Source: Octopus sinensis (lineage: Eukaryota). From it: 64,000 nt of DNA. The stretch spans positions 100,812,001 through 100,876,000 of the forward strand of contig NC_043004.1 in NCBI RefSeq assembly GCF_006345805.1. The letters are read 5' to 3'. Position 1 is the first letter of the stretch; every line of letters starts with the position of its first letter. The position numbers and the translations under genes were made by a program. Below the pieces are notes generated by a model. The model was not told where the DNA came from and made no database searches. It was given only the letters and a program-made list of their open reading frames with translations. Shown here piece after piece: positions 451 to 6,240 of the stretch.

Positions 451-653
451 TAATAATAATAATATAATAATAATAATAATAAAATGACAACAAAAGAATG
501 AGACATCGGTATTATGTAAATAGACGAATATATATATATATATAATATATATATATATATAAATATTATTAGAGACAAAACCACTATTTTGCAAAACAAA
601 CAAGGAAAGACTTAATCAATACATAAAATTTTAATAAATAGTCAAAAAAACCG

Positions 654-695
654 CCACTACAATCGTTTCTTGTCTGATCGACAATCTTCAGGTGG
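654..695 (-). ncRNA. Minimal type I hammerhead ribozyme (intact core)
   Basis: Minus strand reads ccac CTGAAGA ttgtc gatca gacaa GAAAC gatt GTA gtgg: stem I ccac/gtgg, stem II ttgtc/gacaa, CUGANGA and GAAA core, GUA cleavage triplet. Confidence 0.85.
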
Positions 696-3600
696 ACTTC
701 CAATCTAAAAAATCAAAATTTTAAAATATAAAATTATAATTTTAAATAATTAAAGTATAAATGAAAAAATATAAGTATATAATCCATATATAACCTATAT
801 ATAATCCATATCGAAAATATAGACAAATTACCACGAATCCCTAAAAAAAACCATGATAAAACAAAACTCTTAAAAATAATAACGATAAAATCTCCCTTTC
901 CTAACTCTAAAACAAACTATATAGTATCCCCCTAACCTAAACATTCACACACAAATACACACACGTAAACCACAGACCCACGACTTAGACACATACCTAT
1001 ACTAACTTATAAACCTCAATATACACCAAAACCCACTCCCTCCCCACACAGACAAATTAACACATACATCCCAAAACCTAAATAACAAACCCATATACAC
1101 ATTCACACACAACACACACACACACGCAAAACACGCAAAACACAACAGATATATAACTCCCTCACATATACGCCATCCATACTCACTAAACTCGACATAT
1201 ACAACAATACTTACACACCACAAAAATCATTAAATACATTTATTAGCTTTAACTCACCTTAGCAGCTCTAACAAACAACTTGCAGTAACCCAATCCCATT
1301 CTCTATGCCTACCTCACTACTACACTATTCCATTCACAATTCCAAGCAACACTAGTCCACCACCCGGTTATTCACGTGCAAAACGAACACCACTCAAATT
1401 ATGAATGAAACAATGTAAAAAATAACCAACATCGAAAATAGACAAATTACCACGAATTACCTAAAAAAAACCATGATAAACCAAAAACTCATAAAGCATA
1501 TAACGATAAAATCTCCCTTGCTAAACCCTATAACAAACTTAAATAGCAATCCCCCTAACCAAACATTCACACACAAATACACACACGTAAACCACTGTAC
1601 TTGGGATTGCATGTGAGCCTCAGCATATGCACCTAACGGCCACTCCCGCCCCACATGGATAAATAAACACATACATCCCCAAAATGGGAGAGTAATCCAT
1701 TCACACCAATTGTATATAATTATACACACTAGAATAATACATAACTAACCCAAATATACAGAACATACTAATAATCACCAACTAACCACCATCATAAATG
1801 AAACCCACACCCATACAATGACAAAAACTCCCCCCCATACCCTATTACACCCCACATAGTAATCCCAATATATTCATCCATACATGGACGCAAGTGCGTG
1901 AAGCACATGCACATAAATAGTACGTACAACCCCTAATACACACTAATATATACGTATCAAGCTCGACCTCCACAGCGATACGTTTACAACCACTCACACC
2001 CAGATGGGTGAATTGCACAACCAGTGAATGCTCACACACACGGGCGCGATTACATTGTTGCATATATCGAGCCAAAATAGTATGCATATGTACATGTGAG
2101 GGGTACACGCAAATGAAGTGAGCGTGTACCCCCTGCATTTATACCGTGCGTGAATATACACTGGAGACTACCACACAGGTACAAATTGTTTAGAAATGGG
2201 AGCCCCATCACTACACTTAATGTATACTCTCACATCCGCACGAATGTGTAAGTGTATCTCCAGTGTATATGTTGAGGCTTATATGTAGCGTTGTGGAAGG
2301 GAACGTCGTTTAAATTGTGAATGAATGGGTGGAGTTGGGAATTGTAACGGGTCGTGGACTAGCGTTGCTTGGAATTGTGAATGGATTAGTGTGGTAGTGA
2401 GGTATGCATCGAGAATAGTTATGGGTTACTGTAAGTTGTTGTTAGAGCTGCTAGGGTGAGCTAAAGCTCATAAATGTATATAATGATTTTCATGGTAGTT
2501 TTTAAAGAATCCATTCATAATAATTTTTTTAAGTAGCGTTGGTTTGCTACGTGGATATAGTTTTTAGTTCCATTTATTATATTTCTCCATTCATATTTTG
2601 AATGACGTTTACTTTCTATGGCGTGTATTCTTTTTTTACATAAGTTATTTCTATGGTAACGTAATTTTTGTTTGGTTTTTAACGGCTAAGAATTTAATTT
2701 TCACTTCATAATGTGTAACTGAATTGTAAGTATGTATTTGATTTATCCTTATGTCAATTGTTATTTTTGATATTCTGGTTAATTACGATGTATTTAATGT
2801 TGTTTTCATAGGAGTGTTATGTATATGAGATTGGTTGTGAGTTTTTAGTTGTATAATTAATTTATTTATCTGTATGAGTGTGGGTGTGTAAATATTGTTG
2901 TATATATCGAGTTTAGTGAGTAGTATATGCGTATATGTGAGGGAGTATATGTATCTGTTGTGTGTGTGTGTGTTTTGCGTGTGTGTGTGTTTGTGTGTGA
3001 ATGTGTATTTGGGTTTGTTATTTAGGTTTTGGGATGATGTGTTAATTTGTCTGGAGGGAGGAGGGAGTGGGTTTTTTGTGTATTTTGAGGTTATAAGTTA
3101 GTATAGGTTTGTGGTATAAGTCTTGGGTCTGTGGTTTAGTGTGTGTATTTGTGTGTGAATGTTTAGGTTAGGGGGATTGCTATTTAAGTTTGTTATAGGG
3201 TTTAGCAAAGGGAGATTTTATCGTTATATGCTTTTATGAGTTTGGTTTTATCATGGTTTTTTTTTAGGTAATTCGTGGGAAATTGTCTATTTTCGATGTT
3301 GGTTTTTTTTTTACATTGTTCATTCATAATTTTTGAGTGGTGTTCGTTTTGCCACGTGAATAACCGGGTGGTGGACTAGCGTTGCTTGGAATTGTGAATG
3401 GATAGTGTGAGTAGTGAGGTGGGCATAGAGAATGGGATTGGGGTTACTGCAAGTTGTTTGTTAGAGAGCTTAAGGTGAGTTAAAGCTAATAAATGTATTT
3501 AATGATTTTTGTGGGTGTGTAAGTAGTGTTGTATATGTCGAGTTAGTGAGTATGTATATGCGTATATGTGAGGGAGTATATGTATCTGTTGTGTGTGCGT

Positions 3601-4041
3601 GTTTTGCGTGTGTGTGTGTGTTTGTATGTGAATGTGTATATGGGTTTGTTATTTAGGTTTTGGGATGTATGTGTTAATTGTGTGTGTGGGGAAGTGAGTG
3701 GGTTTTTGGTGTATATTGAGGTTTATAAGTTAGTATAGGGTATGTGTATAAGTCGTGGGTCTGTGGTTTACGTGTGTGTGTATTTGTGTGTGAATGTTTA
3801 GGTTAGGGGATTACTATATAGGTTGTTTTAGAGTTTAGGAAAGGGAGATTTTATCGTTATATGTTTTTAAGAGTTTTGTTTTTATCATGGTTTTTTTTAG
3901 GGAATCGTGGTAATTTGTTATATTTCGATATGGATTATATATAGGTTATATATGGATTATATACTTATATTTTTTCTTTATACTTTAATTATTAAAAATT
4001 ATAATTTTATATTTTAAAATTTGATTTTTTAGATTGGAAGT

Positions 4042-4085
4042 CCACCTGAAGATTGTCGATCAAGACAAGAAAACGATTGTAGTGG
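4042..4085 (+). ncRNA. Minimal type I hammerhead ribozyme (copy of 654-695 with an extra A in GAAA and in loop II)
   Basis: ccac CTGAAGA ttgtc gatcaa gacaa GAAAAC gatt GTA gtgg. Confidence 0.75.
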
Positions 4086-4328
4086 CGGTTTTTTTGACTA
4101 TTTATAAAATTTTATGTATTGATTAAGTCTTTCCTGTTTGTTTTGCAAAATAGTGGTTTTGTCTCTATAATATTTATAATATTTTACTATAAAATTGGAT
4201 TTAATCCTAAATCTGATTTTTTCCCCTGTAAATTTGGATTTATTCCCTAATATTTATTATTATATATATATATTATATATATATTATATATATTATTATT
4301 GATATATATTACTGATTATCCTATACTC

Positions 4329-4409
<81 letters not shown>

Positions 4410-5859
4410 TTATTGATATATATTACTGATTATCCTATACTCCTCTCTCTCTCTCTCTCTCTATACATATTATATATATATATATATTATATATATATAT
4501 ATATATAGATATATATATATATAATATATATATATATATATACATATAACGCTTGACTTAACAAAGCGAAAAGAGAACTCAATATATAAATCAGAGTATA
4601 AATTTTTTAGGCGAGATTACTACAGAAATTACTAAGGGACTTAGAGTTCTGTACCAAAGGACTTTTCAAACTGAGATTTTAAAAACACACTAGAAAAGCA
4701 TCTATTCCATTGCTGTCGAAATCGAAAGAATGCCATAAAGGGAATATAGTTTTTTGCAGGTGAGTAGAATAAATATATTTAAAAACTAGCCGACATAATA
4801 GGTTGTAAACGTGAAATGACATATATGTACAGATCGACGTACGTCTGAATGAGATCGTATTCCTCAATCTTTCACAAGCGAAGTGAAATGCATCATAGTG
4901 TTATGTTTCTAAGAAGAATTGCACCTCACACAATTCCATATTATCTAATTGTGACGTCTTCGTCGTTTGATTTGCTCCACAGCATCTTATTACTGCATCT
5001 GGCCCTTTTTCTCTCACACACTCCTAAGCATTAAGCACCGGTATGTGTCACTCTTTTCTTCGTTTTTTGCTTTATGAACACTGTAGGAGGCCCATATGTT
5101 ATCTCTCCAGATGAGCGTGTTGGCTTCTCTGGAGTTCGCCTGTTTTCCTTCGACAGACACCTGCTCAACTGTCTCGAGTTTTTTTTTTTCCCCCTCTAGG
5201 TGGAAAGAGAGATATGAATCTTTTGCCTGGTCCTTGTTTGACGAATTTGTTACGTAAGGAGGACACTCTCTTTTCTAATATACTTTAACCATGTTTTCTT
5301 TTCTTTTCTGCAGGGAGTAACCCATATTCCAAAATTCAACTCTTCTGCAATGCTAAAGTTTGATATCATCGCTGGTAAAACTTATATTGTGGTATCCCTA
5401 GGTTTTTTTCTTTTCTATTTGTCGGTGTAAATCGCTGTGTAGAACTGTGTCTGTGTCTACAACATCACTTCGAATCAACATCGTTTTTGTATGGTTATCT
5501 ATTTAAAAAATTTTTCTTATTTTATGATCGCTTTGTTTTGTCAAACATTTTAGGGTGCATTCGTTGCTGCATTCTTTGTCTCTAACACGTCTTTTACTCC
5601 GCCATAGCTGGTCATAGCATTCTACTAGTAAACAGTAATTTTAAATATATAAAAGAAAATACAAAACTGCCCAAGGATAATCCTTACTTTTTAGCCCCAG
5701 GGTAAAAAGATGAGCGCTGAAATTTTCTAAAACCCTTTGTTGGCAAAATGAATCAAAAACTATTCTTTTCGATCAAGTGAAATATGGTAAATCCTATTCT
5801 TTTCTGGAGCTTTATATCAGGCTATCAACTCCCAACCAAACAATAGTAAAAACAACAAG

Positions 5860-6240
<381 letters not shown>

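What the first reader, a model, noticed from the sequence alone, without database searches (positions are those of the whole stretch)
561..4175. 3.6-kb palindromic element with ~1-kb arms and an outward-facing hammerhead near each end
Seen: ~1,030-bp inverted arms, each with an internal partial duplication (810-975 repeated at ~1430-1594), no ORF, and a strand-composition flip near 2265 beside a small inverted repeat (2156-2171 and 2253-2268). The right arm is extended by a tail. This matches the inverted-pLTR architecture of PLE insertions, but the body is long and non-coding. Inference: read-through in either direction gives a kb-long dsRNA that could sequester its own ribozyme and be an ADAR or siRNA substrate.
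Basis: partly seen in the sequence, partly recalled or inferred. Interest (0 to 1): 0.7.

Follow-up and report, generated by a model that had tools for sequence, protein, structure and literature searches.

The report
Head-to-head Hydra-type Penelope retroelement stump
This palindrome is two cut-short end pieces of one common jumping gene (a Hydra-type Penelope-like retroelement) joined back to back in a TA repeat, a known layout, and it looks long and non-coding only because this family has an unusually long untranslated end.

Summary
The arms (556-1595 against 3131-4179, about 93% alike), both hammerheads, the internal duplication and the one-sided tail are real. The insert is not a non-coding element of its own. 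It is a 5'-truncated copy of a multi-copy Penelope-like retroelement whose coding copies lie elsewhere in the genome (reverse transcriptase plus GIY-YIG, Hydra-clade motifs). The window holds only its 3' untranslated region, terminal repeat and tail, plus an inverted second piece. The layout is published (PMC8557442, PMC3846280), and this scan met it before on other DNA. What differs: a 5.7-kb unit (listed Hydra families are 1.1-3.0 kb), a modular untranslated region of about 2.75 kb carrying an old fixed inversion that explains much of the skew flip, and a tail of about 88 bases. Of 49 two-ended pairs, 48 have one short and one tailed end; both arms share a subfamily in 15 of 15 loci; either arm can be the longer. 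This favours two reverse-transcription starts over fold-back copying (inferred). A fold-back artefact or a DNA transposon is very unlikely. The dsRNA idea is structurally possible but untested: no read-through transcript of this locus was shown.

The parts
526..558 (.). (TA)n target, left remnant
   Evidence: sequence; family ends run into (TA)n by inspection
556..1595 (-). inverted 5'-truncated piece: last 1.04 kb of the 3' untranslated region plus pLTR, ending at the short (tail-less) end
   Evidence: matches 4929-5953 of natural copy L018 at 94%; end at unit position 287
654..695 (-). type I hammerhead with 2-bp stem III; core intact, one base fewer in loop II than the family majority
1595..1596 (.). 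head-to-head joint, blunt, no microhomology, no inserted bases
   Evidence: short-read contigs continue each side as in the family (loose ends at 1595 and 1596)
1596..4265 (+). sense 5'-truncated piece: 3' untranslated region from 460 bases behind the ORF stop, pLTR and tail
   Evidence: matches L018 copy 3391-5965 at 94.8% and 1-391 at 94.2%
1596..2050 (-). old inverted repeat unit fixed in the family's untranslated region (C/A-rich)
   Evidence: 68% over 320 bases to the reverse strand of the sister subfamily's region, score 109 against shuffles 34 +/- 4; about 66% to own downstream units
2154..2270 (+). local stem-loop present across the family; role unknown
   Evidence: 69 copies cover it; z -2.0 to -2.6 in the five commonest versions, -3.6 in the window
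2854..3936 (+). two degenerate direct repeat units of the untranslated region (spacing about 630), the source of the 'internal duplication'
3910..4187 (+). pLTR (about 280 bases)
   Evidence: 7-296 and 5676-5965 of L018 copy are 99% identical
4042..4085 (+). type I hammerhead; one extra A in the GAAA core, seen in 1 of 125 matches, error or private change
4188..4265 (+). tail of about 88 bases (unit 287 to 375), the sequence that follows the 5' pLTR in full copies; right end blurred by TA
4262..4295 (.). (TA)n target, right remnant; a target duplication cannot be read in it

Best explanation
The palindrome is one insertion of a multi-copy Penelope-like retroelement with Hydra-clade protein motifs, made of two 5'-truncated end pieces joined head to head in a (TA)n tract, likely because the element's enzyme started reverse transcription twice, once at each of two fixed RNA sites 88 bases apart. 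Shown: identity to coding copies, the two fixed ends, one of each per insertion, same subfamily on both arms, variable arm lengths, blunt or short-homology joints. Inferred: the GIY-YIG domain cut both strands of the TA tract; each target end primed one cDNA (one at the short site, one at the tail site) on RNA from one source locus; both stopped early inside the long untranslated region; repair joined the two 5' ends. The window copy has no ORF and is most likely a dead passenger; its hammerheads are ordinary parts of the terminal repeat and are predicted to need a second copy or the protein to cut.
For: Natural copy L018 reads pLTR-tail-ORF-untranslated region-pLTR and contains every part of the window element. 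A protein search of the genome gave 116 matches among 112 scored of 8900 candidates; L073 has an open frame of 859 codons with 209 relatives at E <= 1e-10. Motifs DKT, KWK, CxCX5C, CxxC..E..N..CxH and no cysteine pair inside GIY-YIG match the Hydra description (PMC8557442 section 11). Of 141 pLTR ends, 69 stop at the short site, 48 at the tail site, 24 continue into the ORF. 48 of 49 outward pairs are short+tail; 45 after removing three duplicates. Both arms carry the same subfamily markers in 15 of 15 loci, mean distance 2.5 against 8.4 for permuted partners (minimum 4.4 in 2000). Short-end arm longer in 24, tailed arm longer in 13, about equal in 6 of 43. Five of 43 tailed arms are 83-100 bases, stopping at the short site, and the tailed arm of L071 runs one whole unit and stops there too. 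Two start sites and two-strand cleavage were shown in vitro for a Poseidon element (PMC11167929).
Against: No read bridging this locus's own joint was seen (table cut). The window copy is the noisiest: its arms differ from each other about as much as from other loci (distance 11 against 12.8). One pair scored tail+tail (L070), which one search shows as two neighbouring inserts, and 34 ends stayed unpaired. Shared markers between arms can also come from gene conversion after insertion or from subfamilies active at different times. About 6 of 43 joints are symmetric, some palindromic, as the self-priming model of PMC3846280 expects. Loci were the best hits of five searches, not a random draw. 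Clade placement rests on motifs; no tree with named Hydra proteins was built.
Confidence: 0.9

Rival explanations
1. Same element, but the inverted arm was made by fold-back or self-priming of a single cDNA or antisense template, not by a second start.
For: Self-priming was proposed from palindromic joints in rotifer Penelopes (PMC3846280 Discussion). Both arms share markers. About 6 of 43 joints are symmetric.
Against: Copying one arm from the other fixes which arm is longer, yet both orders are common (24 and 13 of 43); tailed arms hold bases absent from the short arm; the window joint is blunt and leaves 1535 unpaired bases.
Confidence: 0.2
2. The locus acts as a regulatory fold-back RNA: read-through makes a 1-kb duplex that is edited or diced and silences the family.
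For: The arms would pair: 22 perfect blocks of 21 or more bases, -405 kcal/mol for the outer 300 bases. Antisense small RNAs against Penelopes are reported in a rotifer (PMC3846280). Many sister loci have the same potential.
Against: No host exon with a Pfam match above cut-off among 117 frames tested around the locus; nothing marks this copy out from dozens of others; the shape follows from the insertion mechanism and needs no selection.
Confidence: 0.1
3. Assembly artefact (fold-back chimera of long reads).
For: 37 single-base gaps between the arms; assembly noise is plain in frameshifted ORFs; no bridging contig shown.
Against: Flanks are not mirrored; the two ends are the family's two different natural ends; 1535 bases of spacer; 45 independent loci share the layout.
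Confidence: 0.03
4. DNA transposon or foldback element with long terminal inverted repeats.
For: Long inverted arms with internal repeats.
Against: Arm length runs from 39 to 7186 bases between copies, one end always carries a tail, the coding partner is a reverse transcriptase, and direct tandem copies exist (L039, L077, L080, L087).
Confidence: 0.01

Closest known systems
Hydra-clade C-terminal EN+ Penelope-like elements (Craig et al. 2021, PMC8557442), e.g. Penelope-13_HM, Hydra-1_Obim
   Same: RT then GIY-YIG, DKT, CxCX5C linker, no CCHH, CxxC/CxH round E and N, type I hammerhead near the 3' end, (TA)n target; Penelope-13_HM is listed with a 966-base inverted 5'-truncated copy (File S1).
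   Different: Unit 5.67 kb against 1080-3045 bases for the 27 listed families; untranslated region about 2.75 kb; tail about 88 against 30-40 bases; KWK for RWK; asparagine-rich insert of about 95 residues; hammerhead stems unlike those listed for Hydra-1_oBim.
Inverted pLTR with one-sided tail of EN+ Penelope elements (Arkhipova et al. 2013, PMC3846280; Craig et al. 2021)
   Same: Head-to-head 5'-truncated copy, tail at one end; long spacer before the 3' pLTR (Pen1_Av, 0.9-1.5 kb) and asparagine-rich inserts are also reported there.
   Different: The Pen1_Av spacer is captured host DNA that differs between copies; here it is shared by the family and built of the element's own repeat units, one inverted. 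No target duplication is readable in (TA)n.
Poseidon_Ac (Frangieh et al. 2024, PMC11167929)
   Same: Two internal start sites define the tail; both strands of AT-rich DNA are cut; hammerhead in the pLTR.
   Different: Other clade; its start site is described as not homologous to the target, whereas both ends here lie in AT-rich bases that could pair with (TA)n.
Minimal PLE hammerheads and non-LTR retrozymes (PMC4209133; 10.64898/2026.07.22.740005)
   Same: Type I hammerhead with very short, self-complementary stem III, predicted to work as a dimer (self-duplex -5.8 kcal/mol).
   Different: Not a tandem array of short units; two copies on opposite strands, so a read-through RNA holds one sense hammerhead and its complement.

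Membership tests
EN+ Penelope-like elements | single ORF with RT and C-terminal GIY-YIG | tested here: met
   L073 open frame of 859 codons with YRDD-type RT core and VVY..YIG; absent from the window copy itself; Pfam gave no RT hit
EN+ Penelope-like elements | pLTRs from partial tandems | tested here: met
   L018 7-296 = 5676-5965 at 99%; tandems in L039, L077, L080, L087
EN+ Penelope-like elements | inverted 5'-truncated copy and one-sided tail | tested here: met
   48 of 49 pairs short+tail; tail about 88 bases, longer than the 30-40 described
EN+ Penelope-like elements | hammerhead in the pLTR | tested here: met
   103 of 125 matches with intact core; paired change in stem II in the sister subfamily; cleavage not tested
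Hydra clade | DKG changed to DKT | tested here: met
   SDKTRN
Hydra clade | CxCX5C linker | tested here: met
   CTCRDKSNC
Hydra clade | CCHH motif absent; CxxC and CxH round conserved E and N | tested here: met
   no cysteine pair between the VVY and YIG halves; CYLC..E..N..KCRH in L018, KCRN in L073
Hydra clade | RWK motif | tested here: inconclusive
   KWK here; RWK or RWR in 11 of 11 aligned relatives
Hydra clade | (TA)n insertion preference | tested here: met
   nearly all of 117 terminal ends run into TA repeats, by inspection
Hydra clade | generally short, under 3 kb (a tendency in the paper, not a diagnostic) | tested here: not met
   unit 5.67 kb; ORF stop to hammerhead 1.29-4.17 kb
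Hydra clade | placement in the clade by RT phylogeny | not tested
Neptune / Nematis | CX2-5CxxC linker and CCHH | tested here: not met
DNA transposon with terminal inverted repeats | fixed-length repeats at both ends and a target duplication | tested here: not met
   arms 39-7186 bases; ends differ by the tail; duplication unreadable in TA
Non-LTR retrozyme | tandem short units each with a type I hammerhead | tested here: not met
   two inverted copies 3.35 kb apart

The most novel reading that the evidence does not exclude
Inverted Penelope insertions are made by ordered twin priming, one target end at each of two RNA start sites of one source, and the by-product feeds back: an inverted arm became fixed inside this family's own untranslated region, so a lineage of Hydra elements doubled its length with its own tandem and inverted end pieces, and its many kilobase-long hairpin copies supply edited dsRNA that restrains it.
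Probability: 0.2. Interest if true: 0.6.

Novelty: new variant of a known kind. Interest (0 to 1): 0.3.

Why it matters
How Penelope-like elements make their inverted ends and one-sided tail is called unresolved in PMC8557442 (passages). Because this family's untranslated end is so long, its arms are long enough to type by subfamily and to measure, which gives a usable test set: strict one-tail rule, same source for both arms, either arm longer. It also warns annotators: such stumps look like non-coding foldback elements or assembly errors. The window locus on its own is an ordinary dead copy.

Tried and rejected
Rfam scan of the window: only microsatellite-driven microRNA matches among the 150 of 221 shown, none used. 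Energy folding of the lone hammerhead is uninformative. Pfam and PDB gave nothing for the ORF. Sequencing runs: no RNA holder listed; 20 of 21 rows hold part of the stretch, none half of it. DNA-type contigs of four runs on 1250-2000 covered all bins, but no shown piece bridged 1595|1596 and 2338 pieces were not shown, so this neither supports nor refutes the locus. Four runs only guessed to be RNA covered the pLTR/tail and patches of the ORF of L018; contigs give no strand, start or level, and no splice joint near the ORF start was listed. Host-gene search: 117 of the 208 candidate frames listed plus distal window frames, one weak RT piece in L093 and four sub-threshold hits; small exons would be missed. 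The skew flip as centre of symmetry was rejected (joint is at 1595|1596). Microhomology at the window joint was looked for and not found. The earlier-finding lead of a hairpin behind each end: folds of six pLTR-tail regions show a stem-loop behind each site in L018 and L035 but other folds in L074, L075, L077, L085, and too few changes to test pairing. Paper searches: 'twin priming'+'Penelope' gave 3 papers, none on this by title or abstract start; 'Octopus'+'Penelope'+'hammerhead', the Hydra search and the untranslated-region search listed no description of this family; Repbase/Dfam were not searchable, so it may be catalogued. Sequence look-up in earlier findings gave two unrelated phage notes; place look-up none.

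Full report
Observation. The inverted arms are real: 540-1595 aligns to 4195-3131 at 93.4%, with 21 substitutions and 40 gaps, 37 of one base. Each arm carries a type I hammerhead motif pointing outward (654-695 minus, 4042-4085 plus). Rfam showed none among the 150 of 221 rows printed and the lone motif folds no better than shuffles, as expected for a form with a 2-bp stem III. Of 125 motif-like matches in the fetched loci (three look spurious), 75 are identical and 103 have an intact core; a sister subfamily changes both sides of one stem II pair. The window's left copy lacks one loop base; the right has one extra A in the core, seen once in 125.

A multi-copy family. The window lies at G000:C8:100812001-100876000 in a 2.72-Gb genome. 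The end, and two interior pieces, gave 1060, 468 and 1051 first-look candidates, the 40 scored being 93-99% identical; candidates are not copy numbers. I fetched 80 stretches around hits. Natural copy L018 reads pLTR, tail, ORF (437-2930, frameshifted in this assembly), about 2.75 kb of untranslated sequence, pLTR; the unit is 5.67 kb. The window element is the reverse of 4929-5953 followed by 3391-5965 and the tail. So the body is non-coding simply because both pieces were truncated inside a very long 3' untranslated region. The host is named by no call; my guess of an octopus-type cephalopod is from recall and untested.

The coding partner. A protein search of the genome returned 116 matches (112 of 8900 candidates scored). 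L073 holds an open frame of 859 codons whose first 60 or so come from its own inverted arm. It has 209 relatives at E <= 1e-10, almost all unnamed; Pfam and PDB gave nothing. The alignment shows an RT core, then a linker CxCX5C and a GIY-YIG domain without the inner cysteine pair, DKT, KWK, and CxxC and CxH round E and N. These match the Hydra clade as defined in PMC8557442 (section 11 read whole; other passages; supplement File S1 Hydra sheet and File S2 read; the other supplementary parts, including alignments, not read). Its 27 listed families are 1080-3045 bases long; one, Penelope-13_HM, has a 966-base inverted copy. No tree was built.

Ends and joints. Of 141 pLTR ends, 69 stop near unit position 287, 48 near 375 and 24 continue into the ORF; the stops run into (TA)n. 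The tail is therefore about 88 bases. Pairing outward ends gave 48 short+tail and one tail+tail of 49; the exception, L070, is two neighbouring inserts; L030, L033 and the second L043 pair are duplicates, leaving 45; 34 ends were unpaired (no arm, end outside the stretch, or missed). Joints are mostly blunt, overlap by up to 9 bases or hold short inserts (58 rows); the window's is blunt. In 15 of 15 loci where both arms cover the last 560 bases, both carry the same subfamily markers; mean distance 2.5 against 8.4 for permuted partners. The window is the weakest case (11 against 12.8 to other loci), in line with its noise. In 43 of the 45 pairs with a mapped joint the short-end arm is longer in 24, the tailed arm in 13, and they are about equal in 6. 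Five tailed arms are 83-100 bases long, and that of L071 runs one full unit and stops at 287.

Mechanism. Shown in vitro for a Poseidon element: both strands of AT-rich DNA are cut and extended, reverse transcription starts at two sites that bound the tail, and the hammerhead is protein-assisted and dispensable for insertion (PMC11167929, parts 1-2 of 4 read). I infer the same here: each target end primes one cDNA, one at each start site, on RNA of one source; both stop early; repair joins them. Copying one arm from the other would fix which arm is longer, which the counts do not show. Tailed arms that stop at the short site fit two enzymes meeting on one RNA; long overlapping arms need a tandem transcript or a second RNA. 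The rival is self-priming (PMC3846280, passages read), which fits the few symmetric joints. Gene conversion can also explain shared markers. The sample is of best hits, not random.

The long untranslated region. It is modular: degenerate direct units about 630 bases apart, with ORF-stop-to-hammerhead distances of 1.29-4.17 kb between copies. The sister subfamily's region (L074, about 2.8 kb) is G/T-skewed throughout. The C/A-rich part in the window's subfamily (window about 1596-2050) matches it in reverse, 68% over 320 bases, score 109 against shuffles 34 +/- 4, between forward-matching flanks. An old inversion was therefore fixed in this family; with the inverted left arm it accounts for most of the skew flip. 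Whether it came from a captured inverted arm is inference. The stem-loop at 2154-2270 is in all five commonest versions of 69 copies, z -2.0 to -2.6; role unknown.

The dsRNA idea. A read-through RNA would pair over about 1 kb (22 perfect blocks of 21 or more bases) and would cover the hammerhead. Nothing here shows such an RNA: no host exon passed a Pfam cut-off nearby, and the read tools could not decide. The same potential holds for dozens of sister loci, so it is a property of the family, not of this copy.

Comparison and verdict. Layout, hammerheads and target are published for EN+ Penelope-like elements (PMC8557442; PMC3846280; PMC4209133, abstract and opening read; bioRxiv 10.64898/2026.07.22.740005, part 1 of 5 read), and earlier notes of this scan describe the same layout on other DNA. 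My searches listed no paper on this family or on twin priming in Penelopes, but repeat databases were not searched. The locus is an ordinary dead copy; the family is a long variant of the Hydra type with useful statistics on how inverted ends form. Interest 0.3.

Noticed in passing
L091:4690-6038 and L092:4347-5309: Small tandem/inverted arrays of 260-285-base units made of the tail and ORF start, mostly without the hammerhead, still ending in one short and one tailed end.
   Followed up: no
L018:3300-6940, run X15 (RNA only guessed): 21 of 42 listed changes are A>G on the strand opposite the ORF (X19: 11 of 55; X9: 3 of 38; X16: 2 of 20), against 31 of 399 among genomic copies. Could be editing of antisense RNA or a diverged relative; the rows were mostly hidden and depth is low.
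   Followed up: partly
L018:6500-6540 (minus strand), unit 415-450: No in-frame ATG precedes the conserved N-terminus; an ATG lies 17 bases upstream in another frame next to a splice-donor-like word, in most copies shown. Intron or frameshift unresolved.
   Followed up: no
L073 ORF, alignment A1 columns 525-640: Asparagine-rich insert of about 95 residues from AAT-type repeats behind the RT, absent from 10 of 11 relatives; the closest relative P0001 has a shorter one there and another further on. Similar inserts are reported in rotifer Penelopes (PMC3846280).
   Followed up: partly
L073:6583-6764: The inverted arm is fused in frame to a 5'-truncated ORF, giving a chimeric open frame of 859 codons.
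   Followed up: no
L042, L043, L045, L048, L052, L054, L064 at unit position 3476: Several copies break or rearrange at the same place next to an A/T run, suggesting a subfamily with a local rearrangement or a truncation hot spot.
   Followed up: no
L029, L030, L033: The same insertion with the same flanks occurs twice on contig C27 in opposite orientation and on small contigs: segmental duplication or redundant assembly.
   Followed up: partly
window 4296-4470: A short unit of TA, a 30-base spacer and CT repeat occurs twice right of the element.
   Followed up: no
L093:2362-2673: Weak RVT_1 match 7.5 kb left of the window, a fragment of another retroelement.
   Followed up: no
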